A DNA stretch of 64,000 nt from Nitrosopumilaceae archaeon (GTDB lineage Archaea; Thermoproteota; Nitrososphaeria; Nitrososphaerales; Nitrosopumilaceae). How positions within the stretch are numbered: the stretch's first letter is position 1; every line of letters starts with the position of its first letter. A program made the position numbers and the translations under genes. The notes under the pieces were generated by a model, which worked only from the letters and a program-made list of their open reading frames with translations, ran no database searches and had not been told where the DNA came from. Location of the stretch: assembly GCA_965208905.1 (NCBI GenBank), contig OZ242365.1, forward strand, positions 1,600,001-1,664,000, given 5' to 3'. Below are positions 7,978-35,815 of this stretch, piece after piece.

Positions 7978-7998
7978 ACCCTCCTGATGCACGATACA

Positions 7999-8046: not shown

Positions 8047-8068
8047 GGAACGACACTTTACACTGCCA

Positions 8069-9043
8069 ATGGAAGATATACAACTTGACAGTCTGGAGGG
8101 CGTCGGACCGGTAACCGCACGCAAACTGGCTGAAGCAGGCATACACAACATCATGGATTTGGTAGTGCGGGGGCCCATTGAGATCTCCAACATCACAAGC
8201 ATGGAGAAGGAGGCTGCCGAAAAGCTGGTCACCAAGGCCAGAAAACATCTATCCGAAAGCGGGCAACTGGCAAAAGAGTTTGTCAGTGCGGCAGAAATCT
8301 ACAAACGTCGACAAGAGATAGGAAAGATATCCACCGGAACCGACTGCCTCGACACGCTGTTTGGCGGAGGCGTTGAGACGCAGGCCCTTACCGAGGTATA
8401 TGGTGAGTTTGGCTGCGGTAAGACCCAATTCTGCCACACCCTATGCGTCATGGTACAAAAGAGCATACAGGACGGCGGCCTTGGGGGCGGCGTGCTGTAT
8501 ATGGACTCTGAGAATACCTTCAGGCCTGAAAGAATAGCCTCTATTGCCAAGGCCAATGGCATGGACCCACAGCGCATACTGGAGAACATCATAGTGGCCC
8601 GTGCATACAACAGTGCCCATCAGATACTCATACTTGAGGAGGCCGGTGCGATAATACGTGAGAATAACATCAAGCTACTGGTGGCAGATTCGGCAGTCGG
8701 TCTGTTCAGATCCGAGTATCTGGGACGCGGCACACTGTCCGAGAGGCAGCAGAGATTAAACCACTTTGTGCACCTGTTGGTGCGCATAGCCGAGACGTAC
8801 AATGTTGCCGCGGTGGCCACCAACCAAGTGATGTCATCCCCGGATTCGTTCTTTGGGGATCCGACAAAGCCCATTGGAGGCAATGTGGTGGCTCATACCA
8901 GCACGTACAGGGTTTACTTTAAAAAGTCCGGCAAAAAGAGGATAGCCCGCATGGTGGACAGTCCGCACCATCCCGAGGAGGAGACGATGTTCGCCATAAG
9001 CGAGGCGGGCATAATCGACCCCGTAGAGCCAAAAACCAAGTAA
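8069..9043 (+). CDS. radA: Archaeal RadA recombinase
   Basis: HhH N-terminus LEGVGP, GEFGCGKT, TFRPERI, GRGTLSERQQ, PIGGNVVAH; start MEDIQL 28 nt after TTAAA; T-rich terminator 9044-9055. Confidence 0.97.
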   Translation: MEDIQLDSLEGVGPVTARKLAEAGIHNIMDLVVRGPIEISNITSMEKEAAEKLVTKARKHLSESGQLAKEFVSAAEIYKRRQEIGKISTGTDCLDTLFGGGVETQALTEVYGEFGCGKTQFCHTLCVMVQKSIQDGGLGGGVLYMDSENTFRPERIASIAKANGMDPQRILENIIVARAYNSAHQILILEEAGAIIRENNIKLLVADSAVGLFRSEYLGRGTLSERQQRLNHFVHLLVRIAETYNVAAVATNQVMSSPDSFFGDPTKPIGGNVVAHTSTYRVYFKKSGKKRIARMVDSPHHPEEETMFAISEAGIIDPVEPKTK

Positions 9044-9060
9044 TTTTTTTGTTTTATTTG

Positions 9061-9170
9061 ACCGGGGATCACCCCCCGGCAAGGTTTGCCGTGTAGGCAA
9101 ACCAGCAACATACAGCAGGGGCGCCGGACACTGACCCACGTGTGTGCTAGGACGTAAAGTCTCGCCCGGC
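9061..9170 (-). ncRNA. Structured small RNA: GCCGGGC pseudoknot plus two 3' hairpins, the last CRISPR-repeat-like
   Basis: Starts exactly 28 nt after GCGCCTTATA; GCCGGGC pairs with GUCCGGC; GGUUUGCC/GGCAAACC and CCGGGG/CCCCGG stems; no credible ORF. Confidence 0.7.
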
Positions 9171-9224
9171 CCTATGGATGCTGCGTGGCACAATATAAGG
9201 CGCTATGTGGCTTTGGGTCGAAAT

Positions 9225-9506
9225 TATTCAGTCGTATCTACAAGAGCATTCGGCGTGGTCAGGGGTTGACTGTAGCCGTTCCACGGAACCGTCCGTCATT
9301 GTTTTGGCGATGTCATGTGTATGGTGAAGTTATGGACATCCTACCACGCCTGCCTTTCGGCCAACCGAGGCTGTCCAGTGTACAGAAGTCATGTGTTTGT
9401 TGATGTTACGAAATAGTACGAGTACTACTGCTAGATGTTGTGACATGCATCGAGTGACAGTCCTCGGGCTTATTGTATGCCGTCTGTGTCGATGATGTGG
9501 CTTCAT
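9225..9506 (-). ncRNA. ~280-nt highly structured RNA candidate
   Basis: Own promoter (CCCTTAAACG, 28 nt); long-range stems 9456-9467/9365-9375 and 9340-9350/9252-9263, GCC-GAAA-GGC hairpin 9352-9361; a weak 58-codon ORF (9506-9330) is the alternative. Confidence 0.55.
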
Positions 9507-9590
9507 GCCAAGGTAGCAGATCGGTTACGTTTAAGGGAGTATATGGCTTTGGACTGATGGTGACTATAGTCCCACAACATCATAAAATTT

Positions 9591-9670
9591 AACCGGGGGC
9601 TTTGGGCCCCCGGCAAGGTCTGGGGGACTACCGCCCCCGACCTAGGCGCATACGCCGGCACCTACCATAA
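9591..9670 (-). ncRNA. Three-hairpin small RNA ending in a CRISPR-repeat-like stem-loop
   Basis: CCTTTAAA box ~30 nt upstream; stems UAGGUGC/GCGCCUA, GGUC-GGGGGC/GUCCCC-GACC (bulged), CCGGGGGC/GCCCCCGG; same ACCUUGCCGGGGG junction as the 9061 RNA. Confidence 0.6.
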
Positions 9671-9704
9671 GACGGTATGATACATATCGATTGCATTTAA
9701 AGGA

Positions 9705-11141
9705 CTATGTGGCTTTTGTACCCGAGCCGCCACCGGCCTTGCCCATGGCTGCGCCGGCAGCCCCGGCAGGCTTTGCACCAGCACCCATGCTACCCATGCC
9801 AAGTCTTCCCGCGCCCGCGCCAACTGCACCCTGCGCAGTCTGTATCATGCTGGTGAACGAGCCGGTAACCTGCTGTATAATCGTAGCAAATGCGCCCAGC
9901 GATACAATGGGTATGGCTATTGCCATCGACATTATGCCCGTGCCGAACATCCATACAACCAGTACGTCATTCCCATAGTCGGACAACAGCAGCCCGACCA
10001 TCAGCTCTGATGATATGCTGAACAGTATGGCCATCTCTATTGGGTATAGTATGGCGGCCGCCAGTGATGCGGGGCCGTATGTTGTCAGCACCTGCTTTAT
10101 CCTTCCGCCGCCGTGCATATGCTCCCAGGGCATCAGCATAAGCAGAAGGTATGCCGGCACAAACACGAGCATTGTGGCTGTTGCCACATCCACTGCGACG
10201 TTTGATATAATCATGCCCGTACCGGTCATTATTACGGCCTGCGCCTTTATCATGCCGAACAGTATGTTCACGATAAACTCGCCAAAGCCCCTGTACATCC
10301 AGTCGGCCGCATTGTCCCAGTGTGAGGTAATGGTCTCCCAGAAGGAGCCGGATACATCAACGGGTGGCGGTATGGCCTTTGTATTGCCGCCCCACTGCTC
10401 CAGCATGTATCGGACGCGCAGTTCCGGCTGGCACATCGCATCCAGTTTACCGGTCTTGTCCTGCATGAGCAAATACCGTGTTGCATGATAGTGTTTCTGC
10501 AGGGCCTCGTTGTCCGTATCCAGCACGCCGTTTGTATACCACTGCGGGGGGCACGGATACTCCCTGTTGCCGGAGTATGCGTTGTTTAGTATCTTTGTCG
10601 ATACCCACTCCGAACCGTCTATCGAATAATCCCATATGGGCGGTAGTATGAACAGTATCACAATGCACAGTACGCACCTTGATGGCAGGCTTGACATCCA
10701 CACGTATGCCCAGTGTGACCCGCGCGGGTCTGCGCCAAACCCCACCGTACCATAGTTTTCCCCCCGCCGCATCATGGTTTTTTTGGGCCTCATCATCGGA
10801 TGTACGCCGTCTGTGACCTCCTGTGTATGTTCGCCCTCCATTACATATGATGCCCTGTGTCCGAAACGGCCGGTTATCAGCCAGGCTATCGCGCCCAGGC
10901 CTATTATACCATACAGGACGGCCTCGCGCTGCTGCTTGAATACATGAAACAGCATGTTGCCGTTCTCCCCCGTGTGATCCAGACTGTACTCGAAGTCCGG
11001 CATGTCTATCAGTATATCTACCAGGTTTTCGACCAGAAAGTCCTTGATGATACCGGATATCGTGATTATGGTTACCACAAGCGCCAGTATGATTGCCAGG
11101 TCAAGCACGATCTGCACGACAAAGAGGATTGGCAGCGCCAT
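9705..11141 (-). CDS. VirB6/TrbL-like polytopic membrane protein (paralog 1)
   Basis: Many TM segments, Gly/Ala-rich tail; shares PPIWD and CxPxLRVxY with 58518..61202. Confidence 0.65.
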   Translation of the reverse strand: MALPILFVVQIVLDLAIILALVVTIITISGIIKDFLVENLVDILIDMPDFEYSLDHTGENGNMLFHVFKQQREAVLYGIIGLGAIAWLITGRFGHRASYVMEGEHTQEVTDGVHPMMRPKKTMMRRGENYGTVGFGADPRGSHWAYVWMSSLPSRCVLCIVILFILPPIWDYSIDGSEWVSTKILNNAYSGNREYPCPPQWYTNGVLDTDNEALQKHYHATRYLLMQDKTGKLDAMCQPELRVRYMLEQWGGNTKAIPPPVDVSGSFWETITSHWDNAADWMYRGFGEFIVNILFGMIKAQAVIMTGTGMIISNVAVDVATATMLVFVPAYLLLMLMPWEHMHGGGRIKQVLTTYGPASLAAAILYPIEMAILFSISSELMVGLLLSDYGNDVLVVWMFGTGIMSMAIAIPIVSLGAFATIIQQVTGSFTSMIQTAQGAVGAGAGRLGMGSMGAGAKPAGAAGAAMGKAGGGSGTKAT

Positions 11142-11416
11142 ACCGTATCACATATGGTTGATCCGTTTTTGGGTTACTAAAAATTAGTTCTTTTGGAGTT
11201 TGTTGTTTGTCAAGTCTGCGCAATCTCTACACATCACAGGATTCACACCTCAATAATCGGCATACCGTGAAAGGGTGGTTTATCAGTCCCAAAAGTGGGT
11301 CCCACTAACATATAATCCGTGAAGGGCCTATAGTTTGATGCTGCCAGGTGGCCATCCAAGAGTCGCGCAGTTGGCTTTTTCGCGCTCCTTTGGTCCACGC
11401 GCCTTCACCCCTAACG

Positions 11417-12052
11417 CTAACTGGAATGCTCAAGATTCTTGCCACTGACCTGCGTCAGAGCACGAAGGAATCCCATAGTTTGCCGCATGTCCTTAGCATA
11501 CTCCGGGTGTGTATCACTTGCTATCCAGTGACGAACCTTTCGGTTGACATAGATGAGACCGAATCCTGTAAGCGAGAGTAGTCGCAACGCCCAAGCTGGC
11601 CTCACTATATACTTGTTTAATAGCCGTTCATATTCACCAATGGTTCTTGCTGTTCGCTTCTCCAACCATTTGGCCATATAATTAATCAGTGCAGCATTCT
11701 CTTCCTGGGTTCGATCTAGATTTTGGGCAACATCTACCATAAATCGAATGGTATTCGGTGGTACAACTATGTAATAGTCATTTTCCGTAAGGAAGAGGTA
11801 CACAGTAAGTAATGCTGTCCTCTTGTTGCCGTCAGGAAAGGGGTGGAGTCGAATAATGCCCTCCATCAGTGACGCAGCCTGTTTGAATATCGTGTCATGT
11901 ACGGACTGACCATATACGGTGAGAAATGCTGTCTGTACTATGCCTTCGACCGCCTGACGATTTATGTGTCCATCAGTAACGCGTTTGGGAAACATCTTCC
12001 GAATCTCACTATGAAATAACAACACATCGTCGGCGGTTATATGATCTGTCAA
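11417..12052 (-). CDS. Fic/Doc family toxin
   Basis: HPFPDGNKRTA motif; TTG start overlapping upstream stop. Confidence 0.9.
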   Translation of the reverse strand: MTDHITADDVLLFHSEIRKMFPKRVTDGHINRQAVEGIVQTAFLTVYGQSVHDTIFKQAASLMEGIIRLHPFPDGNKRTALLTVYLFLTENDYYIVVPPNTIRFMVDVAQNLDRTQEENAALINYMAKWLEKRTARTIGEYERLLNKYIVRPAWALRLLSLTGFGLIYVNRKVRHWIASDTHPEYAKDMRQTMGFLRALTQVSGKNLEHSS

Positions 12053-12156
12053 ATCTCGGCCAAGCGGTCAAAGACAATCTTGTTGTCCTTTATGCAATTC
12101 CTTGCGAGCTTACTCAACCTTGTCTTCCTTTCTGTCGTGTTTGATCTGCTGTCCAT
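12049..12156 (-). CDS. Probable small antitoxin (35 aa)
   Basis: Overlaps toxin start; ends IVFDRLAEI like Doc-partner helices; TTTTATA box ~29 nt upstream. Confidence 0.6.
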   Translation of the reverse strand: MDSRSNTTERKTRLSKLARNCIKDNKIVFDRLAEI

Positions 12157-12281
12157 GTATCTTATACTTCCTAGAAATATAAAAAGATAGGGTGCGTCCC
12201 ACGGGGGCTTATCCCTGTAACTACAACCTAGGGAATTATATCCATAAGTAAACATTACCCGTGCCTTTTCCTAGAGCCTTA

Positions 12282-12494
12282 CTAGAGAATGCGTTCACCC
12301 CCACACTTGATTAGTTGTAGTAGTTTTTCAGGCGTACGTATGATGTCAAACCCCGTACCATTCCTTTTGCCAAAATCCAAAAGTTCTAACTCGTCTACAT
12401 GCCGCTTAACCTCGTAGAGTCTGCCATCATACGCCAACACTATCTCCACCTCCACTCCGTCCAAGGATATGGAATTTACCTCAATAGCAATCAT
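12282..12494 (-). CDS. Hypothetical protein
   Basis: ATG 28 nt after GCTTAAACG. Confidence 0.6.
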   Translation of the reverse strand: MIAIEVNSISLDGVEVEIVLAYDGRLYEVKRHVDELELLDFGKRNGTGFDIIRTPEKLLQLIKCGGERIL

Positions 12495-12518
12495 TGTTGA
12501 ATAACATCTCCATCACGT

Positions 12519-12794
12519 TTAAGCAGGTGGTTGGTTGTTTACCCAGCCGGTCTTGCCGACCAGGTTGCTGCAATCCCTGCAATCCACACAGTCTACACAA
12601 CTAGTGCAGTGCTCACACCTTTGACACCGGACGCAGTTTTTGCAGTTCGCACAACAAACACAATGTATACATTCCTCACAATCCCTGCAACTGGTGCACT
12701 CCTCACACTCCCAGCAATTCCTGCAGTCTGTACAGTTGCTGCATGTGCGACATTCCCCACACCCCGAACAATCATCACAATACATGTTTGACAT
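12519..12794 (-). CDS. Cys-rich (CxxC)n repeat protein, copy 1
   Basis: Cys at every third residue over ~75 aa; ends LVGKTGWVNNQPPA; paralog of 31588..31953. Confidence 0.8.
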   Translation of the reverse strand: MSNMYCDDCSGCGECRTCSNCTDCRNCWECEECTSCRDCEECIHCVCCANCKNCVRCQRCEHCTSCVDCVDCRDCSNLVGKTGWVNNQPPA

Positions 12795-12847
12795 CATTAT
12801 AGTGGGTCCATTCCGTTTAAGCGGAGTTCCGCCCGCACCTGTTAAAG

Positions 12848-13591
12848 TCAGGTAGCATCTTTGATAGCCTTGGCCAGGTCCTGTCTGCGCAGCCTGACCG
12901 AGACGGTCGAGACTGCGGCCGCATCGGCAATCTCCTGCTGCGTTACCCCACAGTTGTGTGCAGCACATACGGTATACAGGGCCGCCGCAGCCAAGGTAGC
13001 GGGGTCTTTGCCTGACATCTGCGACATCACCGACTGCAATAGTTCAACCGCCTTGCGCAGTATTGTCTCCGGCACCTTACAGGATGTGGCAATACTACTG
13101 ATGAATGCTGCCGGGTCCGGGGGCGGCACGGACAGCGACAGGCCATTGACCAGAACGCCATAAATGCGCTTTACCTGCCCGGGTTTTACGGCCGCCACCT
13201 CGCAGATCGACTTTGTAGTACGGGGTACGCCTTCCAGCCTGCATGCCAGTGTAACCAGCGCGGCTGCAAAAGCTCCACGATGCCAGCCGCGGTTCAGCCC
13301 GTGCGCGTTGGCATTTGTGTTTAAGGAAACTGCCCTCCTATATGCGATATCGGGCACGCCACACTTTGTACATATTGATTCAATTACGCCTATCATTGCC
13401 CAGTTGGGACGGCTTATCTTCCTGTCCAGTTTGTGCAACCTCCACTTCCCCTCGAACGTCTTGGTACGGCCCATCTCCGACCATATCTGGGTGAGTGTTG
13501 GCGCGGCCCTGCGAACCTCCCCGCACTTCGTACACACCAGTTCACCATCATCCTCAAGTATACGACCTCCGCATCGACATGTCAGCACCAC
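12848..13591 (-). CDS. tfb: Divergent transcription factor B
   Basis: Zn ribbon CRCGG...VCTKCGEV, two cyclin folds (LNRGW...AAALVTLACR; GKDPATLAAAALY), C-terminal HTH; GTG start 13591 or 13588. Confidence 0.88.
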   Translation of the reverse strand: MVLTCRCGGRILEDDGELVCTKCGEVRRAAPTLTQIWSEMGRTKTFEGKWRLHKLDRKISRPNWAMIGVIESICTKCGVPDIAYRRAVSLNTNANAHGLNRGWHRGAFAAALVTLACRLEGVPRTTKSICEVAAVKPGQVKRIYGVLVNGLSLSVPPPDPAAFISSIATSCKVPETILRKAVELLQSVMSQMSGKDPATLAAAALYTVCAAHNCGVTQQEIADAAAVSTVSVRLRRQDLAKAIKDAT

Positions 13592-15219
13592 ACATTCCAA
13601 CCCCCGTCGAACTTGGTAAGGCCGCAATCCGCCCGGCTCACCCCACCGTGCCGTATCATGGCCGCGTTGACCGGCTCTGCCATGCCGCACCATATCACCC
13701 CCGTCCTTGATACGGGGGGAGGAATCGCCAGGCCGGTATCCCATGCGGTCGGCCCATCAGCGCTTATCGTGTATCGCATGGCATCACCCACATGCTGTAT
13801 TGTAGCAGTCACCACATCGTGATACGTGGATGATACAAGCGGCTCCAAAACCATGCCGTCCGCCATATATGTGACATTTCCGGTCATCGCCGGCATCCTT
13901 AATGTGATTGCCGCCGGCTCTCCCGTTGCGTCTACATGTATTGTGGAGCCCTCCCGTGTAATATCAACATCAAGTACCGACTCGTATGTGGTCGCATAGG
14001 GTATTACGAGCGGCGCATATGATGAGTGCATAACATCAAAGTCTACAGTTACAATGCTGCCAGGCGGACATATTGCGGCAGCCATATTGTCCGGGTCGCC
14101 AGACACCAGACTCATGCGTACGGCTCCATGGAAGCCGTTCCCATATACTATGCCGGTCGCGCCATCCCATGCGCGAACCACCATGTCCTGTATGCAATCA
14201 CCAGTACACATGTCATTGGGTATGGAGTGTATTGTTATCATATCAGATGTATTATGCGGTATTGTTGCCGACAATACGCCGCCTACCACATCATATGTGG
14301 CGTCCAACATTGTATTCCCCTGCCAGAATGTAAAAGTCCCGCCGAATGCCGGCATGACTATATGCAGCATGCCTCCACCATCGGATACGCCGCGTATTGC
14401 GGCCGTATTGTATGATCTTGATATGCTCTGAACCTGATATGTATCCGATGACCATGACACGCCCGACAGCGTTCCTGCGCGCATCACATTATCCGGGCCC
14501 GATACATCAACGCTTACCCCGTCCTGTATGCCGTACAGCATATCCATGTATCTCTTCTCAGAGTAGAACCAAAAAGAGTTCTGTATGTGTGGGTCGTATC
14601 GGTCGGCCACATACACGCCTGCCAACGGTATTGGCCTGTCCATATCTACCAAAAACCTGGCACTACCCTCGCCCACATACTGTATTATGTATAACCCGTC
14701 CACACTCTCCATGACGGCCACATCTCCCCATACCTCCCCCACACGTACGACCCCGGGCCCGTCAAGAAAGTCGTTTATGCCAAACAATACGTCATTTAGC
14801 GAGTCTGCAACCGTTCTTGAGTAGTCTACAAAGGGCGTATACATCATGTCATTATACAACAGCACGTATGTTCTTGTCGGTATGCCCGGAGGGGCCGAAT
14901 CATCAAGCAGGGGTATGTCGTGTATAGGGTCGCCCGTAATCTCAAAGGCCGTATCCGGTGAGAATACCACGTCTGGGGGCATTTCCGTTGGCAGGCCGGC
15001 CAGTATGGTGTGGTCGGCTCGTACCACCCAGTACGGAGTCTGATTATGCAACACCGGCGCGATGAACTCCAGCTCAGCATAATAGCAGTATTGCCGCAGT
15101 GTATCGCATATCGTGTATGCGTGGGTTTCGGGCGCGGCGTCCATGCCCGGCTCCCAGTATGCGCCATGTGCAGCAAGGGGCATGCATATGCCAATTACCA
15201 CCAACAGTACATACTGCAT
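13582..15219 (-). CDS. Exported protein with degenerate thermonuclease(SNase)-like C-terminal region
   Basis: Signal peptide MQYVLLVVIG...; VVRAWDGAT, CPPGSIVTVDFD, GVIWC...VNAAMIRHG recall thaumarchaeal SNase-like proteins. Confidence 0.6.
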   Translation of the reverse strand: MQYVLLVVIGICMPLAAHGAYWEPGMDAAPETHAYTICDTLRQYCYYAELEFIAPVLHNQTPYWVVRADHTILAGLPTEMPPDVVFSPDTAFEITGDPIHDIPLLDDSAPPGIPTRTYVLLYNDMMYTPFVDYSRTVADSLNDVLFGINDFLDGPGVVRVGEVWGDVAVMESVDGLYIIQYVGEGSARFLVDMDRPIPLAGVYVADRYDPHIQNSFWFYSEKRYMDMLYGIQDGVSVDVSGPDNVMRAGTLSGVSWSSDTYQVQSISRSYNTAAIRGVSDGGGMLHIVMPAFGGTFTFWQGNTMLDATYDVVGGVLSATIPHNTSDMITIHSIPNDMCTGDCIQDMVVRAWDGATGIVYGNGFHGAVRMSLVSGDPDNMAAAICPPGSIVTVDFDVMHSSYAPLVIPYATTYESVLDVDITREGSTIHVDATGEPAAITLRMPAMTGNVTYMADGMVLEPLVSSTYHDVVTATIQHVGDAMRYTISADGPTAWDTGLAIPPPVSRTGVIWCGMAEPVNAAMIRHGGVSRADCGLTKFDGGWNVWC

Positions 15220-15253
15220 AGTAACGTATGCTATGAGAACCGTAAATAGGTTA

Positions 15254-15320
15254 CAGTGGTGGCGGGTATGCCGGGCCCCAACCACCAAGTGTGAAAACGG
15301 GATACCCTACCCCGCCCGGC
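15254..15320 (-). ncRNA. GCCGGGC pseudoknot small RNA
   Basis: Starts 28 nt after GCGCCTTAAA; GCCGGGC pairs with GCCCGGC in the loop of the UGGUGG-U-UGGG/CCCG-CCACCA hairpin. Confidence 0.72.
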
Positions 15321-15366
15321 TGGTTATACAAAGCATGGTTGCATTTAAGGCGCCATATGGCCAGGC

Positions 15367-16062
15367 TTATTCATTTTTGCGGGCGGACCTCTTGTCCCGC
15401 GGACTCTTGCGCAGCTGCCCGCCACAACACCCACACCGCTTCACATCAGCAGGAACGTCCTCATATACTACGACACACTGCATGCAGTATGCCCGACCGG
15501 GCCCGGCCCTGAACTTTTTTGAGCCTTTTCCATGCCGCCCGCAACACCTGGATCCGGTTTTCTCCGAATCCTCGCATTTGGTGTATTTTGGTACGGGCTT
15601 GCCATTGTATTTGGCCTGTCCCTCGGCTATCTTGAGCGGCCTGTCCCCGGGCGCCACACCCTCCACCGCCAGACGCCTCCACTCCAGATACTCAGCGTGG
15701 TATGGTTTGTCAGGTGGAATCTTGGAGCGGCTTTGCTTCTTTGGCGGCTTGCCCTTAAATGCCACGTACCGCCTGTACTCGTTGGCCATGGCCCTCTCCT
15801 GTTCGGTAGGCTCCACACCCTCGCGTATCTTGCGGCTGAATATTGCGTGAGCCTCCCGCAACTCTTTGGGTATGTAGTCGTGCTTTGGCTTCCGGGTGGT
15901 GGACTTGGCCTGCGGCTTGCCCTTGTGGTACAGCCAAGATTTGTACTCGTTTGACTTTTTACGTATATCATCAGGTATTGGCTTGCCCTCCCTGCGCAGT
16001 CTGTTGGCCTCGGAACAGGCAGCCCTCAGTTCCTCAGGTATATAGAGTAGCTTGCTTTTCAT
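15367..16062 (-). CDS. Basic protein with internal repeats and C-terminal Zn ribbon, probably nucleic-acid binding
   Basis: YIPxELRxA...REG...NEY...KGKP twice; CMQC/CGCC; ATG 28 nt after CCTTAAA. Confidence 0.7.
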   Translation of the reverse strand: MKSKLLYIPEELRAACSEANRLRREGKPIPDDIRKKSNEYKSWLYHKGKPQAKSTTRKPKHDYIPKELREAHAIFSRKIREGVEPTEQERAMANEYRRYVAFKGKPPKKQSRSKIPPDKPYHAEYLEWRRLAVEGVAPGDRPLKIAEGQAKYNGKPVPKYTKCEDSEKTGSRCCGRHGKGSKKFRAGPGRAYCMQCVVVYEDVPADVKRCGCCGGQLRKSPRDKRSARKNE

Positions 16063-16143
16063 ATATAGTATACGTGGTGAGGATATTTAAGGCGTCCCTC
16101 ATGCCATATAGCGCCTTATAACATACCGTGTAGTTCGACGGGC

Positions 16144-17433
16144 ATGAAAACAGCAATCATTGCGGCAGCATGTCTGGTATTTGCTGCCGCGTACAATGCA
16201 GACGCGCACTACACATATGCGGAAGAATCCGTGCCATGGTTCTTTGCGCAGACGGTGCATATACAGAGCGGAGGCAACACGCAAGCAGGCATAATATGGG
16301 ACGCAAATACAATAGTAACATCCAGTCATGGTATCGTGAACAACACAATCCACATAACAGACGCATACGGCAATCACATACCCGGCACATTGCTCATCGC
16401 AGACCCGTACTCTGATGTCGCAGTAATACTGGCATACACGGGCGAAGAGCCGGTTAGAGGAGAGTTAGATGCAATACCTGGCCAGTGGGTTTATGCGGTC
16501 GGCCATCCAAAAGACCGGCCATACGCGGTAACATTTGGCATAATATCCAGCACTCATCGCAGCGTACCGGTATCAATACAACACGATGCCGTGGTGTCGA
16601 CCGGCAATTCCGGCGGACCGCTATTCACTCTGGATGGTAGATTGGTCGGCATGACCGTTGCCTCTGATGATTTGGCGTTTGCCGTTCCCTATGAGATACT
16701 AGATGCGGTAGTACAATCCATACATGAAACCGGTACGTACGCACCTGGCTGCATCGGCATAGTACTGGATGACAACACGATAAGGACCGTACGAGACGAG
16801 GTAGCGGGCATATTGCACCCCGGTGATGTTATTATGTCTATAGACGGAAAACCTCCCTACGAGCTGCAGTATGATCGTTCCGCAGGCGAGTATGTTGTCG
16901 TGGTATTGGAGGACAGAACGGTGCAGGTACAACTAGGCTACATGGGAGAGTGGTTTGGCATACACAGATGCATGGACTCGCCAACCAGCCTGGACAGACT
17001 GATGGTACGGAATCTGATGGCATACACAGGTGGAGACAGGGTTGTCGTGGCCGGTGATATACACAATATTGGCAGCACCGAACTAACCTCTTTGACACTC
17101 GATAGGCTAGCCATACATGACCTGATAATCACACAGGATGATACAACCGGCGATATGTCGTTGTACTATAACGGGACAGATTATGGGGTATATTCAGCCG
17201 CTGCAGGGTATACGACGTTTCACTTTGGTGAGACATTTGATATTGATCTGACCGGCCTGACAGTACATGACACAATACAGCACGGCCTGTACCCAATGAC
17301 ATCAAACCCATTCAGGGTTGTTATAACCGGTGATATGCACATACCATCTGGATCAACCATGCACGTAATCATATCCGGTACTGACGGCAACACGACAATG
17401 TTCTCTGATGTGCAATCCACTATTGTGCAGTAA
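16144..17433 (+). CDS. Exported HtrA/trypsin-like serine protease with PDZ-like and extra C-terminal domains
   Basis: Signal peptide; triad TSSH, SDVAV, GNSGGPL. Confidence 0.88.
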   Translation: MKTAIIAAACLVFAAAYNADAHYTYAEESVPWFFAQTVHIQSGGNTQAGIIWDANTIVTSSHGIVNNTIHITDAYGNHIPGTLLIADPYSDVAVILAYTGEEPVRGELDAIPGQWVYAVGHPKDRPYAVTFGIISSTHRSVPVSIQHDAVVSTGNSGGPLFTLDGRLVGMTVASDDLAFAVPYEILDAVVQSIHETGTYAPGCIGIVLDDNTIRTVRDEVAGILHPGDVIMSIDGKPPYELQYDRSAGEYVVVVLEDRTVQVQLGYMGEWFGIHRCMDSPTSLDRLMVRNLMAYTGGDRVVVAGDIHNIGSTELTSLTLDRLAIHDLIITQDDTTGDMSLYYNGTDYGVYSAAAGYTTFHFGETFDIDLTGLTVHDTIQHGLYPMTSNPFRVVITGDMHIPSGSTMHVIISGTDGNTTMFSDVQSTIVQ

Positions 17434-17444
17434 TTTTTTTCTTT

Positions 17445-17549
17445 TTATTTATCTGCGCAACCGACACAATACTCGGCATCTGCCATGGCACTCTCTGGAA
17501 ATTCCTTCCCACACTTCACACAATCATACATGTCTTCTATCTTACCCAT
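17445..17549 (-). CDS. 34-aa Zn-finger microprotein MGKIEDMYDCVKCGKEFPESAMADAEYCVGCADK
   Basis: Hand-translated; two CxxC; ATG 28 nt after GCCTTAAACG. Confidence 0.75.
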   Translation of the reverse strand: MGKIEDMYDCVKCGKEFPESAMADAEYCVGCADK

Positions 17550-17635
17550 ACTGGTGGTTGTGTACCATTGCGTTTAAGGCTGTCTGGGAATGTACAAAAG
17601 TTCTCCTTTAACGTGAACAATACGCATACAATATA

Positions 17636-18169
17636 ATGGAATCCATTATCGACAACGTAAACATCACAATGCATGACAAGCTAATAGAACGGCTTGCCGG
17701 TGCACACACATTGGACATTGCAGTTGGGTATTTTCATGTCAGCGGGTTCAACGAGTTAATCAGACACATGAACGGTGTGCGGATGCGTCTGGTAATGGGT
17801 AACGAGACGGATGCCGATACGGCAGCCCACCTGCGCAAAGGCCACAAGCCAAAGACCAAGTGCAAGCCGGTGCCAACCGAATTATACGAATTCATAAAAT
17901 CCGGCAGGCTCAAAGTCCGAATATACACGCACAGTAAGTTTCACGCCAAGGCGTACATTATACAGGATAGTTGTGCGTTTGTCGGCTCCTCAAATTTGTC
18001 AAAGGCAGGCCTTGGCCGGGGAAGCAGCAACCTGGAACTAAATTTGATGGTGTCAAGTATAGATGAGTTGTCAGCATGGTATGAAAACATCTGGAATGAG
18101 TCTGTACATTATAATTCCAAACTCATCAAGGTTCACCGGCGCAGATACAGACGCTCAAGGAGGCTGTAA
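17636..18169 (+). CDS. Stand-alone PLD (HKD) nuclease domain
   Basis: IAVGYF, FHAKAYIIQD, GSSNLS, NLELN. Confidence 0.85.
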   Translation: MESIIDNVNITMHDKLIERLAGAHTLDIAVGYFHVSGFNELIRHMNGVRMRLVMGNETDADTAAHLRKGHKPKTKCKPVPTELYEFIKSGRLKVRIYTHSKFHAKAYIIQDSCAFVGSSNLSKAGLGRGSSNLELNLMVSSIDELSAWYENIWNESVHYNSKLIKVHRRRYRRSRRL

Positions 18170-18187
18170 AATTAACGATGTTTATCG

Positions 18188-18574
18188 TTAGTCTATGAGT
18201 TTATTCCATGTTATCTGCGTCGCACCATGTGTAGCCCTGCCGCGTATGTTGATTGACACCTGTACCGGTTCGCCATCCCACAAATAGTGGTATTCGGCCT
18301 TTCTGCCGAACCGCGCAGAGAGTATTGTATAACCCGTATACTTTGGAAAAGATTCGGCTACATCCATGCATCGCTCTATCTGATGCGCAGGTATCCGTAC
18401 AGTATCACGTATGGTGGTCTTGAGTTCATGTACATGTATCCTGTCTGTTCCAACGGCAAGTATGTCTGGCAGGCCGTTTGATGATGCTCCCAGTCTCCAT
18501 GCGCGCCATCCACATCGTACATACCGTTTGGCTAGGTCGTTCTCGAATCTGTATCCCCTTGTACGGCCACTCAC
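18188..18574 (-). CDS. hjc: Hjc-like Holliday junction resolvase
   Basis: GYRFE, LPDILA, HELK PD-(D/E)xK motifs; GTG start 28 nt after CCTTTAACG. Confidence 0.8.
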   Translation of the reverse strand: MSGRTRGYRFENDLAKRYVRCGWRAWRLGASSNGLPDILAVGTDRIHVHELKTTIRDTVRIPAHQIERCMDVAESFPKYTGYTILSARFGRKAEYHYLWDGEPVQVSINIRGRATHGATQITWNKLID

Positions 18575-18797
18575 TGTATGGTAGCGTATCGGGTGCGTTA
18601 AAGGGCGGTGTTGGGTTTTGCACTCCTTAAAAGGCTCTGATGTGCTACCACAACATGCAATTATGTCCAATATGCGAACGCAAGGCCAGGCAGGTGGACT
18701 TTAACCACGATGCCAACTATCGGGAGTTCGTTTGCCATACATGCAAGATAAGATTCAGAACACGGTTTTGGTAACCAAAAGGTTGGCCAGATTGCGC

Positions 18798-19208
18798 CTA
18801 TGGTCCCACCTTGGCTAACAACTCCTCATAGGTCATCATGTCCGGTTGTGTGGTATTTGATGGTGGCTGCGCACACTGTATTGTAGCGTTGTATATCTGC
18901 GCGTTTGCAGGCGTACCAGGTACGGGACTCACCCAGGCTACGGACAATACGGGACACCTGGGAGCGTCATCTGATACATATATCAAATCATTTCCAGCTG
19001 CCAGCATCCCCAGTATTGCATTTGGTGTTGTGCCGGATACTGCGGGTTCGATCCCACCAATAAATGAGTCATTGAGCCACACACGTACAGTAACAGGGTA
19101 GTATTCGGATGTTCCGCCATACCCGCCGCCACCTATTATGTATGCGGATACGCCACACATGACTGCAACGCCCATAATGCATAACCCTACGCGCAGAACG
19201 CGGTTCAT
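18798..19208 (-). CDS. N-terminally anchored membrane/exported protein
   Basis: Hydrophobic N-terminus; ATGA overlap with peptidase stop. Confidence 0.55.
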   Translation of the reverse strand: MNRVLRVGLCIMGVAVMCGVSAYIIGGGGYGGTSEYYPVTVRVWLNDSFIGGIEPAVSGTTPNAILGMLAAGNDLIYVSDDAPRCPVLSVAWVSPVPGTPANAQIYNATIQCAQPPSNTTQPDMMTYEELLAKVGP

Positions 19209-19735
19209 AAAAGCAGGCCCACTACAATACCGGCAAAGACAATCGATGTGACCATTGGAAGTCCGGGATACACTATCGCGCCCGCAGGCACGGAATCCAT
19301 TCTGCCGGTTGCAGGATCCACACAGAATCTGTCGCCTTCGCGCTTCTGATACCTGTATAGTCTGAGGGGAAATCCAAGTCCGGGCCGCCGTACACACAAT
19401 ACAACATGACTGCACATCAGGGGCACCATACCGCCGACTATACAATACACTACCGCCATCGGATGTATTGTACATATGGCCATCGATATGCCTGCAACGA
19501 ACCACCAGTCGCCACTCCCCATCATCCGCCTAAATACGAATGCCACACCACCCACACTCCCCCCCATTATGCCGCTGGTGACGACCTCCTGCATGCTGCC
19601 TGTCAGTGCATGCATGATGAATACCGCGCAGCCGACTACAAGTGCAGCTACACATGATTCCAGTGATACGGTTCTGTATTTTGCATCAGATATGGCTGCC
19701 GGTATCATGCACAACAAAGCCAGAAGCCATTCCAT
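19205..19735 (-). CDS. Prepilin peptidase (A24, FlaK/PibD-like)
   Basis: SDxKYRTV, MGSGD, PGLPMV, multiple TMs. Confidence 0.8.
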   Translation of the reverse strand: MEWLLALLCMIPAAISDAKYRTVSLESCVAALVVGCAVFIMHALTGSMQEVVTSGIMGGSVGGVAFVFRRMMGSGDWWFVAGISMAICTIHPMAVVYCIVGGMVPLMCSHVVLCVRRPGLGFPLRLYRYQKREGDRFCVDPATGRMDSVPAGAIVYPGLPMVTSIVFAGIVVGLLL

Positions 19736-19746
19736 GCACGGTAGAA

Positions 19747-20100
19747 TTATTCATTACGTTTAAGCGGCGATATGACATCATGCTCAAAGTGCAGCAACAT
19801 CCTGTTCATGTACAGGGAGATATGCACCCTGTCGCCCTTCCGTATCATACCCGACAGTTTTTTTGGGAGTGATATCACCCAGTAATATCTATACATTATG
19901 CCGCATAACTCCCGTATCTTTACTATGCGTATTGGTATGCCGTCCACATTGTCTATGCGGAATGTATCAGAATTATGTATGTTGATGTATGCATCCTCAC
20001 CGTTTTGTTCAATGTATTTTTTGGCCTGTTTGAACGGCAATCGCAGCCGGTAATATGGTGTGCCATCTATATACTGCATCTGCACACGCCTCACCTTCAT
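19747..20100 (-). CDS. Possible tandem AbrB/SpoVT-like regulator
   Basis: YRLRLP.K and VISLPKK...KGDRVHISL; start MKVRRV. Confidence 0.5.
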   Translation of the reverse strand: MKVRRVQMQYIDGTPYYRLRLPFKQAKKYIEQNGEDAYINIHNSDTFRIDNVDGIPIRIVKIRELCGIMYRYYWVISLPKKLSGMIRKGDRVHISLYMNRMLLHFEHDVISPLKRNE

Positions 20101-20167
20101 ACCGTATAATGCATTTGGGGTTCGCAAAAAGGTTAACATTTTTGCGTTTGTGCGCGCATTATATGTC

Positions 20168-21163
20168 ATGTGGTGCAGCATACGACTGGTCGAACACCAA
20201 CAAGAGAAGCGAAAGGAGTTGGTGCAGTCGATACTCTCCTATGTGAGACTTGCGGCATTCCTCACGTACAGGGATGTAGAGGGCTTCGTACGGTATTCAA
20301 TCTGGTTTGAGGACCAGTATCTGAGTTATGTGCTGGGGCTGCATGCGGCCAAGCCAGATCTGGGAGGTGTTGAGATTACACCGACTGATACGCCATCCAT
20401 ATTGGAGAACTGCATGATTGCCCAGGAGATGGAGATGCGTGGGTACGGGGCTGCCGAACTACCGCTTGATACGGGCATACGCTCGGCGACCGCCGCACTG
20501 GGTACGCAGATTACCGACACAGCATACAGGCTGCTGATATGCCACAGGGTTGAACGGTCTGATTTGATCGACGGGTACGTAAACAGTGGAGGCAGGCCGA
20601 CATCAATGTACAGGAAGGTGGCGGGCATGGCTGCGCGCGAGGCCATGGGATTCTTTGACAGCTCGCCCAGGCCTGCGGCTGAAAAACCCACCATCGATGC
20701 CAAAAAACCGCCATACACGCATACGCGCATCATACTGGGGGCGAATACCGAAGAGCACATAACAATACTTCGTGACTCATTTCCCGCCGGCAGTCTGAAG
20801 AGACTGAACCGCATACCGCCCGTACAAGTGGCCGCGCAGGCATGTATAATACCAAAGGTGCGGACAAGCATGATTCACTTTCCCGTGTTCAATGATGCCG
20901 AACTGGAGAGTCTGGAGATCCTGCCGACCAATGTGACCGAAGTTCCCATGGAGTACGGACGCGCCATCACATCCACAACGCAGCCCCCCACCGTATTTAT
21001 GGATTTGATAAACGACATAATACATACATCCATGCCCAGGCGCGTCCCGCTATATCTGGACATATCCGAAGAGCCCGACGACGCATCAATGCAGCCTGAG
21101 TTTCCAGTACAAATCATAGGCGGTGAACCCGAGTTTCCCATCAGTATGATTCCACACGCCTGA
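20168..21163 (+). CDS. Hypothetical protein, possibly transfer-associated
   Basis: Long ORF; start 29 nt after the box in palindromic CGCAAAAAGGTTAACATTTTTGCG. Confidence 0.6.
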   Translation: MWCSIRLVEHQQEKRKELVQSILSYVRLAAFLTYRDVEGFVRYSIWFEDQYLSYVLGLHAAKPDLGGVEITPTDTPSILENCMIAQEMEMRGYGAAELPLDTGIRSATAALGTQITDTAYRLLICHRVERSDLIDGYVNSGGRPTSMYRKVAGMAAREAMGFFDSSPRPAAEKPTIDAKKPPYTHTRIILGANTEEHITILRDSFPAGSLKRLNRIPPVQVAAQACIIPKVRTSMIHFPVFNDAELESLEILPTNVTEVPMEYGRAITSTTQPPTVFMDLINDIIHTSMPRRVPLYLDISEEPDDASMQPEFPVQIIGGEPEFPISMIPHA

Positions 21164-21196
21164 CGTGTGGCAGTGTGTCAACAAGCTCCGCCCGGC
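21152..21196 (-). ncRNA. Possible minimal member of the GCCGGGC pseudoknot family
   Basis: GCCGGGC 28-29 nt after TTTAA; CCACAC/GUGUGG hairpin with loop GUCAGGC (6/7 complementary to 5' end). Confidence 0.4.
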
Positions 21197-21288
21197 CACA
21201 CCATATATTGCATGATTGTGTTAAAGACGCATTGTGGGATTAACGATGCCCATGCGCGTACAACCGGCCTTACCGGCCAACCAATAAT

Positions 21289-34523: not shown

Positions 34524-34801
34524 AGCAGTACGACAACCTCAAGTATGCGCAGCGCGCCGGCTCAGATATTACTTTACGCTGTACAATACATGCAGTATAC
34601 CCCATAGAGAAGCGGGGAGGGGTTGATGTGCGCAGACTGGACATAACAGATGGTACAATGACGGCAAAACTCGTGGTGTTTGGCAATCAAGCCCAAATGC
34701 CGTACAAAAAGGAGCATAGTATAGTTGCCGGGCCCGTATATTATAGCGACCAGTACCAGAACTTTTCACTAAAGCGCGGCGGCTTCATACACATTCAGTA
34801 G
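34520..34801 (+). CDS. OB-fold ssDNA-binding protein
   Basis: LDITDGTMTAKLVVFG...SLKRGG resembles archaeal SSB/RPA OB fold. Confidence 0.65.
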   Translation: MKQYDNLKYAQRAGSDITLRCTIHAVYPIEKRGGVDVRRLDITDGTMTAKLVVFGNQAQMPYKKEHSIVAGPVYYSDQYQNFSLKRGGFIHIQ

Positions 34802-35586
34802 AGACCCGCGGCCTTGTCCTTCTCGTGCTGTTGTACAACACTCTCAAATGTTACGTCCGGCTCCTTGGCCTCCCAAAATCCCTCGGGCGCGCCTGCCCAC
34901 TCCTCACCGCAGAATATGCAGTTGCTGAATTTGGGGTACTTGTTGTAATACTCTCCATATGAGTAGTGTATCATACATTCGTGCTGGCCTCCCTCCGGAC
35001 ACGTACCACATCGCACCCGGCCAATCGCAGTATATGTGTCCACCAAATCCAGATACCTCAATGTGTCTTTCTTGAATGGCGCTATACGCATGGAGTCCAA
35101 CTCCTTCTTGGTGGCGCACCTTGGCTTCTCCCAGGGTTCGTCCCACGGTATCTTCTCCGGCCTTATGTTATCACAGCTGTTCATCGTACTCCCGCAGTAA
35201 ATGCAGTTGCACTCTACTTTGTCCGGCGTCACAGTAACGATATACGCATGGTGCTTTAGATTTACATCATAGTTTATCTCTTCATGGCGAAGTTTGTCTC
35301 CCAGTCCGTGTATCCTCATCTCCATCCTTGTTCTGTCATCACTATCCCCGAAAAGCGTCTTGGTATCGTCATCCTTGATGGTATCACACCTGCCAAAATT
35401 GTACCGCCCTACAAACATTTTGGGGCCTACGCGATCCATGTAATCCCAATCCTCTCCTGCCCCCTTCATGTCTAGGCGGACAAACTTCTCCCATGCTGTC
35501 TGCCTGGCGCGCCGTGTACGAACGCCTGCATCAGTTGGCTTGTAGTTGGGATTGGTCATATCGACCTCCCGTTTTGGCTCTGCCAT
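34795..35586 (-). CDS. Hypothetical Cys/His-containing protein
   Basis: 263-aa ORF with CxCxxC and CxxC motifs. Confidence 0.7.
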   Translation of the reverse strand: MAEPKREVDMTNPNYKPTDAGVRTRRARQTAWEKFVRLDMKGAGEDWDYMDRVGPKMFVGRYNFGRCDTIKDDDTKTLFGDSDDRTRMEMRIHGLGDKLRHEEINYDVNLKHHAYIVTVTPDKVECNCIYCGSTMNSCDNIRPEKIPWDEPWEKPRCATKKELDSMRIAPFKKDTLRYLDLVDTYTAIGRVRCGTCPEGGQHECMIHYSYGEYYNKYPKFSNCIFCGEEWAGAPEGFWEAKEPDVTFESVVQQHEKDKAAGLY

Positions 35587-35676
35587 ACTGAGTATTGTAT
35601 TGGTGGCATAAAAGGGGTGGGGGCGTCAAGAAACGCAGACTATACAAAACCATCAACGTTGTGGGTTTAAGGGGAA

Positions 35677-35745
35677 GGGTGGCGGGTGTGCCGGGCCCGC
35701 ACCACCCAGACATGATACAACGAGGGAGAATAAACCCCGCCCGGC
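35677..35745 (-). ncRNA. GCCGGGC pseudoknot small RNA
   Basis: Starts 28 nt after GGCCTTAAA; promoter plus 5' end (~41 bp) identical to 15310-15351; hairpin GGGUGG-UG-CGG/CCG-CCACCC with GCCCGGC in loop. Confidence 0.72.
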
Positions 35746-35815
35746 TGGTTATACAAAGCATGGTTGCATTTAAGGCCACATATGACGTTAAACGTGGTGG
35801 CACCGTAAGTTAACC

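What the first reader, a model, noticed from the sequence alone, without database searches (positions are those of the whole stretch)
15254..15360. Dispersed family of promoter-driven GCCGGGC pseudoknot small RNAs (9170, 15320, 35745, possibly 21196)
Seen: protein genes here typically start 27-29 nt after the TATA-like box. At three minus-strand promoters the base 28 nt on begins GCCGGGCG instead of ATG, and no credible ORF follows. Each transcript has the same layout: 5' GCCGGGC, a small hairpin, a variable linker, then a bulged hairpin whose loop holds GYCCGGC, complementary to the 5' end. The hairpin shows a compensatory change (UGGUGG/CCACCA at 15.3 kb vs GGGUGG/CCACCC at 35.7 kb). The 15.3 and 35.7 kb copies share ~41 identical bp of promoter plus 5' end but differ in the linker. 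Inference: an ncRNA family with a constant 5'-protecting pseudoknot scaffold and a variable segment that could be a guide or antisense region. I cannot match it to a known RNA class.
Basis: partly seen in the sequence, partly recalled or inferred. Interest (0 to 1): 0.9.

Follow-up and report, generated by a model that had tools for sequence, protein, structure and literature searches.

The report
Island-borne structured small RNA family
About 70 bases long and sitting right behind a strong promoter, this hairpin-forming RNA element recurs on mobile-DNA islands in one genus of ammonia-oxidizing archaea; it looks like a real, undescribed RNA family, but the proposed pseudoknot, the guide idea and its function are unproven.

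Summary
The sequences are there as described. A consensus promoter (CATATRGCG-CCTTAAAT-N22) puts the expected transcript start on the G of GCCGGGC at window 15320, 35745 and 9170. At other island sites the same promoter and spacing put the ATG of leaderless genes at that spot. A covariance model finds 5 copies in this 2.2 Mb genome, two of them outside the window, and one each in 3 of 9 congeneric genomes. It finds none in any genome searched outside the genus. There are also two decayed copies. Window 21196 is not a member. No Rfam family, tRNA, box sRNA or attC signature fits.

Well supported:
- A conserved 5' 11-mer, a UCCUCGU block and a CCCGGC loop block.
- A 3' hairpin (P2) whose stem sequence differs between copies.
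- Strand specificity, seen as G·U pairs.

Not supported:
- Folding energies are no better than shuffles (z about 0).
- Formal covariation is not above shuffles.
- The 5'-end/loop pairing never covaries and is not compensated in one copy.
- The "variable guide" idea: no targets were found, and the linker type does not follow the downstream gene.

A and B are followed by real genes that have their own TATA boxes. No transcript data exist. Verdict: a real, narrow, new structured-RNA family of an ICE-like island, mechanism open.

The parts
15343..15359 (-). Promoter of copy A: CATATGGCG + CCTTAAAT (BRE/TATA-like), 22-nt spacer to G+1
   Evidence: same motif and spacing precede the ATG of leaderless genes elsewhere on the island
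15257..15320 (-). Copy A element, nt 1-64: 5' GCCGGGC (15314-15320), P1 hairpin (15298-15313), linker (15288-15297), P2 hairpin (15257-15287)
   Evidence: 73.3 bits, E 3.1e-10; P2 beats 993 of 1000 shuffles
15270..15276 (-). GCCCGGC in the P2 loop of copy A, complementary to nt 1-7
15243..15248 (-). TATTTA, own TATA-like box of the downstream gene, 29 nt before its ATG
   Evidence: sequence; background rate of such a box 0.214
13582..15219 (-). Downstream 545-aa gene with an N-terminal hydrophobic (signal-like) segment; no Pfam hit; followed by a TFB paralog (12848-13744)
35768..35784 (-). Promoter of copy B: CATATGTGG + CCTTAAAT
35677..35745 (-). Copy B element, nt 1-69 (5' GCCGGGC, P1, linker, P2 at 35677-35707)
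   Evidence: 81.3 bits; 17 of 1000 shuffles as good
35690..35696 (-). GCCCGGC in the P2 loop of copy B
35608..35613 (-). TTTTAT, own TATA-like box 27 nt before the ATG of the next gene
34795..35586 (-). Downstream 263-aa Cys-rich gene, no Pfam hit
9193..9209 (-). Promoter of copy C: CACATAGCG + CCTTATAT
9100..9170 (-). Copy C, the most diverged copy in the window; GUCCGGC at 9123-9129; no gene downstream (converges on radA, which ends at 9043)
   Evidence: (52.6 bits, E 1.6e-6); P2 weak (229 of 1000)
9031..9035 (-). T5 run at +136 of copy C, after two further hairpins: possible 3' end
21141..21196 (-). Site D: TTTAAC promoter-like box, GCCGGGCGG, one 7-8 bp hairpin, then an ATG; not a family member

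Best explanation
This is a small family of discrete, promoter-driven structured RNAs carried by an ICE-like mobile island of an ammonia-oxidizing archaeon. The conserved core is about 65-70 nt; the transcripts are perhaps 70-140 nt. Archaeal RNA polymerase starts at the G of GCCGGGC, 28 nt after TTAAAT. The RNA forms a short hairpin P1 (CGGGG/CCUCG), a 10-16 nt linker, and a bulged hairpin P2 of 8-13 bp. The P2 loop always carries (R)YCCGGC, which can pair with the 5'-terminal GCCGGG(C). That gives either an H-type pseudoknot that buries the 5' end or an alternative long-range helix. The element acts as RNA of that one strand. It is independent of the gene that follows, which has its own TATA box and survives when the element decays. 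Shown here: the family, the promoter geometry, the conserved blocks, the P2 hairpin and the strand asymmetry. Inferred: that it is transcribed, where it ends, that the 5'-end/loop pairing forms, and the role. I guess the role is a stable regulatory or decoy RNA of the island acting through its constant parts, not through the linker.
For: Copies: the model finds 5 in the own genome, E 1e-11 to 2e-6. It finds one each in 3 of 9 congeners, with a clean gap of >=44.8 bits against <=19.7 bits. Start point: the same promoter and 22-nt spacer give ATG at other island sites, and genome-wide the TATA-to-ATG distance peaks at 28-30 nt. The GC-rich 5' 11-mer is absent from those ATG promoters, so it is not a promoter requirement. 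Selection: the E and G009 loci are syntenic with flanking proteins 47% and 62% identical, yet they keep GCCGGGCGGGG, UCCUCGU and CCCGGC, and a P2 with a different stem, GGCGGCGCG/CGCGCCGCC. P2 beats shuffled 5' flanks in 7 of 8 copies (0-60 of 1000 as good). In the structure-anchored table, columns 6, 8, 9, 10, 11 and 12 carry changes on both sides. Strand: 10 of 81 P2 pairs are G.U, and the sense strand folds lower than the antisense strand in 8 of 8. Independence from the gene: all 5 independent downstream genes have an AT-rich hexamer at -27..-30, where the background rate is 0.214. The decayed copy (G000 1590192-1590120) lost the upstream TATA, the 5' motif and the P2 3' arm, but keeps the proximal TATA and an intact 64-aa gene. 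Copy C has no downstream gene. G009 has a hairpin plus a T-run before the next promoter.
Against: There are no transcript data. Minimum free energies are not below shuffles: z is -1.40 to +0.15 on the sense strand. On the model-fitted alignment, covariation is not above shuffles: 2 pairs change on both sides against a shuffle mean of 2.0, and the score 0.123 is reached by 310 of 500 shuffles. Only the share of paired cells stands out, 86.7% against 43-60% when partners are slid. RNAalifold gives a covariation term of only -0.45 and 0 compensated pairs. The 5'-end/loop helix has no covariation. G008 has GCCGGAC opposite GCUCGGC, giving one A.C and one G.U, which is not compensatory. The G008 copy is 87.8% identical to E while the upstream flank is 95.8% identical. 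P2 of copy C is not better than chance. T4-T5 runs lie inside A (+24), E and G008 (+12) and G005 (+12). A, F and G005 have no T4 run downstream of the element core within 140 nt, so the 3' ends are undefined. Seven of 8 copies are co-oriented with a gene that starts 97-160 nt downstream, which also fits a leader. My structure-anchored table is circular, because each hairpin was folded on its own.
Confidence: 0.5

Rival explanations
1. It is a cis-acting structured 5' leader. The upstream consensus promoter makes a second, leadered mRNA of the downstream gene. The folded 5' end stabilises or regulates that mRNA, or transcription through it interferes with the proximal promoter.
For: Seven of 8 intact copies lie co-oriented 97-160 nt upstream of an ATG. 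A, F and G005 have no T4 run between the element and the gene. The promoter+element module is found in front of unrelated genes and is swapped between them: G005 has the E-type element in front of the F-type gene, and G008 has the A/B-type promoter on the E-type element. In G009 the P2 3' arm (11 nt) is repeated in the first codons of the next gene.
Against: Each downstream gene has its own TATA-like box at -27..-30, as leaderless genes do here. None shows a Shine-Dalgarno-like run before the ATG (sequence). The gene persists intact after the element and its promoter decay. Copy C has no gene. G009 has a hairpin plus T-run and a new TATA before the gene.
Confidence: 0.25
2. It is a neutral repeat. 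A promoter plus its first ~70 bp was copied around the island by recombination and looks conserved only because the copies are young. There is no RNA function.
For: The distribution is narrow: 4 of 10 genomes of one genus, and 0 of 141 genomes from 26 other genera of the same family. Fold z-scores are about 0. Formal covariation is not above shuffles. A and B share 43 identical bp. The G008 copy diverges faster than its flank.
Against: The E/G009 loci and copy C are old enough for promoters and stems to have diverged, yet they keep the same three sequence blocks and a hairpin at the same place. Decay follows loss of the upstream promoter. The G.U bias is strand-specific.
Confidence: 0.12
3. 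It is a DNA-level site. The inverted 7-mers GCCGGGC / GCCCGGC and the palindromic arm are bound by a regulator, methylase or recombinase of the island (operator, recombination or transfer site).
For: The two 7-mers are a perfect inverted repeat at the DNA level and never covary. The island carries several methylases and restriction systems and a VirB4-like ATPase. The modules appear to recombine.
Against: The spacing between the 7-mers varies from 34 to 47 nt. G.U pairs would be A.C mismatches on the other strand. The position is locked to the transcript start, not to the TATA of the gene it precedes. No tyrosine recombinase was detected in the genome with PF00589 at E<=0.01, although the control genomes all ring. 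No attC core sites are present.
Confidence: 0.07

Closest known systems
H-type pseudoknot RNAs such as the guanidine-III, SAM-II and preQ1 riboswitches (topology recalled from my own knowledge, not from a call)
   Same: The strand order a - b - a' - b', with a short GC-rich first helix that includes a CCGG core. Small size. Position at the very 5' end of a transcript.
   Different: No Rfam model matches, even at E<=5. A hairpin plus linker of ~25-35 nt is inserted between a and b. The downstream genes share no family. The genes have their own promoters. The host is an archaeal mobile island.
HDV-like self-cleaving ribozymes (topology recalled)
   Same: A 7-nt strand that begins at nucleotide +1 with G pairs with a downstream strand, nested with a second helix. 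The size is about 65-85 nt. They are often carried by mobile elements.
   Different: The hairpin lies between a and b, not between b and a' (no P3/L3 equivalent). There is no P4 and no identifiable catalytic C. The Rfam HDV-type models are silent. The RNA already starts at the site where such a ribozyme would cut.
Exonuclease-resistant RNAs and 5'-terminal stabiliser stem-loops (recalled)
   Different: No three-way junction or ring can be inferred. No Rfam xrRNA match. Resistance cannot be tested here.
Small regulatory RNAs of plasmids and integrative elements (counter-transcripts and the like; recalled)
   Same: Short, own promoter, hairpin loops with conserved sequence, carried by a mobile element with replication (MCM) and transfer (VirB4-like) genes.
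   Different: It is not antisense to a neighbouring gene, except for the tail of copy C over the radA 3' end. There are several copies per island. No target complementarity above chance.

Membership tests
Any Rfam 15 family | Covariance-model score at or above the family's gathering threshold | tested here: not met
   0 matches in the window at gathering. On 8 loci holding the copies (23,209 bases) at E<=5 there were only 2 matches (raiA-hairpin E 2.1, snoTBR7 E 2.2), neither at an element.
tRNA / tRNA-like | Cloverleaf recognised by ARAGORN | tested here: not met
   0 tRNA or tmRNA genes in the window. The 48 tRNAs of the genome include none with this 5' end plus a matching 3' end at these sites.
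HDV-like ribozyme | P1 formed by nt 1-7 with a downstream strand | tested here: met
   Nt 1-6 pair with the loop motif in 47 of 48 cells. This is complementarity only; pairing is not shown.
HDV-like ribozyme | P3/L3 hairpin directly 5' of the P1 3' strand, P1.1, P4, and a catalytic C in J4/2 (recalled definition) | tested here: not met
   Only 1-6 nt lie between the P2 5' arm and the motif, and 3-5 nt after it. No Rfam ribozyme model matches.
Riboswitch (H-type pseudoknot classes) | Consistent association with one class of regulated genes and a conserved ligand-pocket consensus | tested here: not met
   All-against-all BLASTP of ORFs within +/-1.5 kb of the 8 loci: no family is shared by all. 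Only the E/G008/G009 and F/G005 syntenies appear. No Rfam hit.
C/D-box or H/ACA-box sRNA | RUGAUGA with CUGA boxes, or an ACA box 3' of the hairpin | tested here: not met
   No C box in 8 of 8. CUGA occurs only in G009, at +14. ACA after the hairpin occurs only in B and C, at non-equivalent places.
Integron attC site | R''/R' core sites RYYYAAC ... GTTRRRY flanking an imperfect palindrome | tested here: not met
   RYYYAAC in 0 of 8. GTTRRRY only in F, at +24.
Trans-acting guide or antisense RNA with a variable targeting segment | The variable segment is complementary to targets beyond chance and/or a co-located effector gene exists | tested here: not met
   There were 12-47 shared 12-mers per copy, counting both orientations; my own estimate of the chance level is about 33. 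The longest run was 14 nt. Cognate downstream regions are not preferred: the diagonal is lowest in its row in 2 of 8. No shared neighbouring protein.
Exonuclease-resistant RNA | Stalls a 5'-3' exonuclease; ring-like fold around the 5' end | not testable with these tools
   Needs enzyme assays and probing or a solved structure.

The most novel reading that the evidence does not exclude
The element is a new class of mobile-element RNA whose 5' triphosphate end is locked into the loop of its own 3' hairpin. It would then be either a compact nuclease-proof 5' structure or a self-processing or protein-recruiting scaffold. An ICE-like island of ammonia-oxidizing archaea, which also encodes its own TBP and TFB, would use it to control or protect its transcripts. 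The P1 loop and linker would serve as exchangeable specificity segments.
Probability: 0.12. Interest if true: 0.8.

Novelty: new member of a known kind. Interest (0 to 1): 0.45.

Why it matters
The paper and Rfam searches made here found no structured non-coding RNA described for ammonia-oxidizing archaea or their integrated mobile elements. The survey of thaumarchaeal integrated elements that I searched has no occurrence of 'ncRNA', 'small RNA', 'non-coding' or 'promoter' in its main text. A promoter-locked, multi-copy RNA with a conserved loop/5'-end complementarity gives a concrete, small object to test for RNA-based control or RNA stability in a lineage with leaderless mRNAs. It also marks a distinctive island promoter, on an island that encodes its own TBP and TFB paralogs. 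If it turns out to be only a leader fragment, it is a minor annotation point.

Tried and rejected
Expression:
- The look-up of sequencing runs: no RNA holder listed; 5 runs from 2 studies hold the DNA.
- Read laying on window 9000-21400 with X1, X2, X3 and X5: only DNA-type contigs. Contigs break at the 43-nt repeat 15309-15351. Nothing on starts or ends of RNA. X5 is a near relative with two substitutions inside copy C (9106, 9138). Only 40 of 233 differences were shown, so copy A in X5 could not be judged.

Homolog hunting outside the genus:
- Viral contigs: 5, 0 and 7 stretches with three patterns.
- Metagenome contigs: 22 stretches.
- I scored all 125 loci (85, 40), the 22 and the 7. The best were 25.8, 17.9, 17.2 and 23.7 bits. 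These were high-GC bacteria or coding sequence. L203 reads as an open frame with no promoter. The 22 metagenome hits share nothing after the imposed 11-mer. I rejected them as chance.
- BLASTN of copy B against plasmids and phages: no match.
- Class-level model scan: 0 of 147 outside the genus.

Other readings rejected:
- tRNA fragment or att site: no tRNA in the window. The nearest tRNAs are unrelated in sequence. No PF00589 integrase.
- Small ORF: an ATG-led frame exists in B only (one search lists 35531-35803) and has no counterpart in A.
- Antisense targets: 12-mer index at chance level. The duplexfold matrix is uninformative, giving long spurious duplexes.
- Neighbouring proteins: no Pfam family for the genes next to E, G009, F and C.
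- MAFFT alignment A3 misplaces the P2 5' arm of the E-type copies by 2-3 columns. I therefore did not use it for counts.

Literature: three searches were made. One search found 0 papers. One search found 13 papers, 10 listed. One search found 77 papers, 12 listed, none on RNAs of ammonia oxidizers by title. For PMC6563490 I saw the listing, the start of the abstract and three passages in find mode. Its supplements, which hold the element annotations, are closed and may bear on the island's classification.

Full report
WHAT IS IN THE SEQUENCE. On the minus strand, GCCGGGCG lies at window 15320 (A), 35745 (B), 9170 (C) and 21196 (D). The 8-mer occurs 7 times in the window against 2.14 expected, and 1 of 100 shuffles reaches 7. 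In A, B and C a TTAAAT or TTATAT box starts 28 nt upstream. A and B are identical over 43 bp, from GCCTTAAAT through GGGGT. Public DNA assemblies break there into a 43-nt double-depth unitig, 15309-15351.

THE START POINT. The genome is one 2.21 Mb contig with 45.6% GC and encodes archaeal AmoA. In it, TATA-like hexamers peak sharply 28-30 nt before the ATG of ORFs of 100 aa or more: 155 at 29 nt against about 22 background. The extended motif CATATRGCGCCTTAAAT plus 22 nt occurs only between 1.608 and 1.777 Mb. At seven sites it is followed directly, or within a few bases, by the ATG of a gene. At three sites (A, B, F) it is followed by GCCGGGCGGGG. This is the best available argument that the element begins at the transcript start. 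It also shows that the GC-rich 11-mer is not part of the promoter.

HOW MANY COPIES, AND WHERE.
- A covariance model built from five copies finds exactly five in the genome: A, B and C, plus E at G000 1591881(+) and F at 1755473(-), with E-values 1e-11 to 2e-6. D is not found, even with filters off.
- Among 100 relatives, 3 of 9 genomes of the same genus have one copy each (G005, G008, G009) and 0 of the other 91 do.
- A second model run with lax filters over the 10 genomes of the genus separates 8 matches at 44.8 bits or more from noise at 19.7 bits or less.
- Just below the noise line lie two decayed copies next to E and its G008 ortholog.
- Family-wide, 0 of 141 genomes in 26 other genera match. 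Class-wide, 0 of 147 outside the genus match.
- Pattern scans of viral, genome and metagenome collections, and BLASTN against plasmids and phages, gave only chance hits.
- Rfam has nothing at gathering thresholds, or at E<=5 at the elements. ARAGORN finds no tRNA in the window.

CONTEXT.
- Window 1-9043 holds Rad50, Mre11, NurA-like and RadA genes.
- From 9100 onward the window is a mobile or defence island. It carries Fic, a TFB paralog, a trypsin-like peptidase, a PLD nuclease, Hjc, MmeI-type and NotI restriction systems, MCM, a TBP paralog, a VirB4/TraG-like ATPase, Dam and Dcm methylases, MORC-like ATPases, an IS66 transposase and a DUF499/DUF1156/SNF2 system.
- A published survey states that all thaumarchaeal integrative-conjugative elements encode TFIIB homologues together with VirB4-type machinery (PMC6563490, passages seen).
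- In G009 the copy lies 5.8 kb from a 77%-identical VirB4-like gene. In G005 it does not lie near the VirB4-like gene.
- No protein family is shared by the neighbourhoods of all copies. Only the E/G008/G009 and F/G005 loci are syntenic.

ANATOMY. All intact copies read as follows:
- GCCGGGC, except GCCGGAC in G008.
- P1, CGGGG ... CCUCG, with a 7-13 nt loop of variable sequence.
- A 10-16 nt linker.
- P2, a bulged hairpin of 8-13 bp.
- A P2 loop holding GCCCGGC, GUCCGGC, ACCCGGC or GCUCGGC.

I folded each P2 on its own with the motif kept unpaired. All eight then form a hairpin around the motif, at -8.5 to -23 kcal/mol. Seven of 8 beat at least 94% of 1000 shuffles of their 5' flank; copy C does not, at 229 of 1000. 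Anchored on the 3' arm, the pairs at offsets 6, 8, 9, 10, 11 and 12 take two to four types. Examples are U.G/C-G/U-A at offset 6 and U-A/C-G/G-C at offset 9. Swapping partners among copies breaks about 13 of 76 pairs, and 0 of 2000 shuffles keep all of them. This table is circular and overstates the case. Ten of 81 P2 pairs are G.U, and the sense strand folds lower than the antisense strand in 8 of 8. Both points speak for a single-strand reading on the promoter-driven strand.

WHAT DOES NOT HOLD UP.
- Whole-element folding energies equal those of dinucleotide shuffles. Sense-strand z ranges from -1.40 to +0.15, and MFE structures disagree between copies.
- On the model-fitted alignment, 86.7% of cells pair, against 43-60% with slid partners. 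But covariation is not above shuffles: 2 pairs change on both sides against a mean of 2.0, and the score is reached by 310 of 500 shuffles.
- RNAalifold picks the 5'-end/motif helix plus P1, with a covariation term of -0.45 and no compensated pair.
- The 5'-end/loop helix is 97.9% paired but varies only by C-to-U opposite G. G008 has an uncompensated A.C.
- The two helices (5'-end/motif and P2) cannot both be nested. The data therefore fit either a pseudoknot or two alternative folds and cannot choose between them.
- The G008 copy is 87.8% identical to E, while the upstream flank is 95.8% identical.

RELATION TO THE DOWNSTREAM GENES.
- A, B, E/G008, F/G005 and G009 are followed by genes starting 97-160 nt downstream.
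- Each gene has its own AT-rich hexamer at -27..-30. The background rate is 0.214 per position, so five independent cases give about 4.5e-4.
- The decayed copy has lost its upstream TATA, its 5' motif (now GCCUGAU) and its P2 3' arm. The proximal CTTAAAC box and a 64-aa Cys-rich gene, a paralog of the gene behind E, are intact.
- C has no gene behind it and runs toward the 3' end of radA through two further hairpins to a T5 run at +136.
- G009 has a hairpin, a T-run and a new TATA before the next ATG.
- These points favour an independent RNA over an obligatory leader. However, T4-T5 runs also lie inside four elements, and three copies have no T4 run downstream of the element core within 140 nt. 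Ends therefore cannot be read from sequence.

THE GUIDE IDEA.
- The linker and the P1 loop do vary, but G005 carries the E-type variant in front of the F-type gene.
- G008 carries the A/B-type promoter on an E-type body. So modules recombine, and the variable parts do not track the neighbouring gene.
- Genome-wide 12-mer complementarity is about what chance gives: 12-47 hits per copy against my own estimate of about 33 by chance, with the longest run 14 nt. Cognate downstream regions are not preferred.

VERDICT. This is a real, narrowly distributed, undescribed family of promoter-locked structured RNA elements on an ICE-like island of an ammonia-oxidizing archaeon. P2 and the three conserved blocks are the solid features. 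The pseudoknot is plausible but untested. The guide function is unsupported. Site D is not a member. My odds are:
- 0.5 for an independent short RNA.
- 0.25 for a cis leader.
- 0.12 for a neutral repeat.
- 0.07 for a DNA-level site.
Interest is moderate. It is new for this lineage and easy to test, but it is small, has few copies and lacks expression data.

Noticed in passing
window 7671-8231 and G000:C1:1776235-1777404: The nurA-radA divergent promoter region and the first ~190 bp of radA are duplicated in inverted orientation (93-94% identity, two blocks). The duplicates bracket about 168 kb that holds copies C, A, B and F. This is a possible footprint of an insertion or inversion of the island.
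   Followed up: partly
window 12848-13744 (-) and 30858-31376 (+): The island encodes its own TFB (TFIIB) and TBP paralogs alongside MCM and a VirB4/TraG-like ATPase. The CATATRGCGCCTTAAAT promoter type is confined to 1.608-1.777 Mb of the genome, which suggests island-specific transcription initiation.
   Followed up: partly
G000:C1:1591981 onward (+) and 1590095 downward (-), outside the window: Two paralogous small proteins (73 and 64 aa) are made almost entirely of CxxC repeats and end in GLVGKTGWVNNQPP. One lies behind copy E and the other behind the decayed copy. Neither has a Pfam hit.
   Followed up: no
L029 (G009:C1:2412292-2415374), about 1562-1572 and about 1650-1660: The 11-nt P2 3' arm CGCGCGCCGCC of the G009 copy recurs exactly within the first codons of the next gene. 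This allows an alternative pairing with the P2 5' arm in a read-through transcript.
   Followed up: no
window 21141-21199 (-): Site D could be a leaderless GTG-start ORF of about 40 aa beginning MAGRS. A gene at G000 507804 begins ATG-GCCGGGCGGAG with the same first five residues. Alternatively it is a short hairpin leader of an 88-aa ORF.
   Followed up: partly
G000:C1: 339728, 530267, 864651, 1760255, 1896956, 1975114: A six-copy repeat has its own promoter (CATACAACTCCCCTTAAAT-N22-(T/C)ATGATACG...). It is probably the start of an insertion-sequence gene.
   Followed up: no
G000:C1:1664528-1664679, 0.5 kb past the window end: ARAGORN calls two directly abutting, atypical tRNAs, Ser(ACT) and Arg(TCG). 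This could be a mis-split intron-containing tRNA or island-borne tRNAs at the right edge of the window's island.
   Followed up: no
window 9031-9100 (-): If copy C is transcribed to its T5 run, its 3' part is antisense to the terminator region and the last codons of radA (stop at 9043).
   Followed up: no
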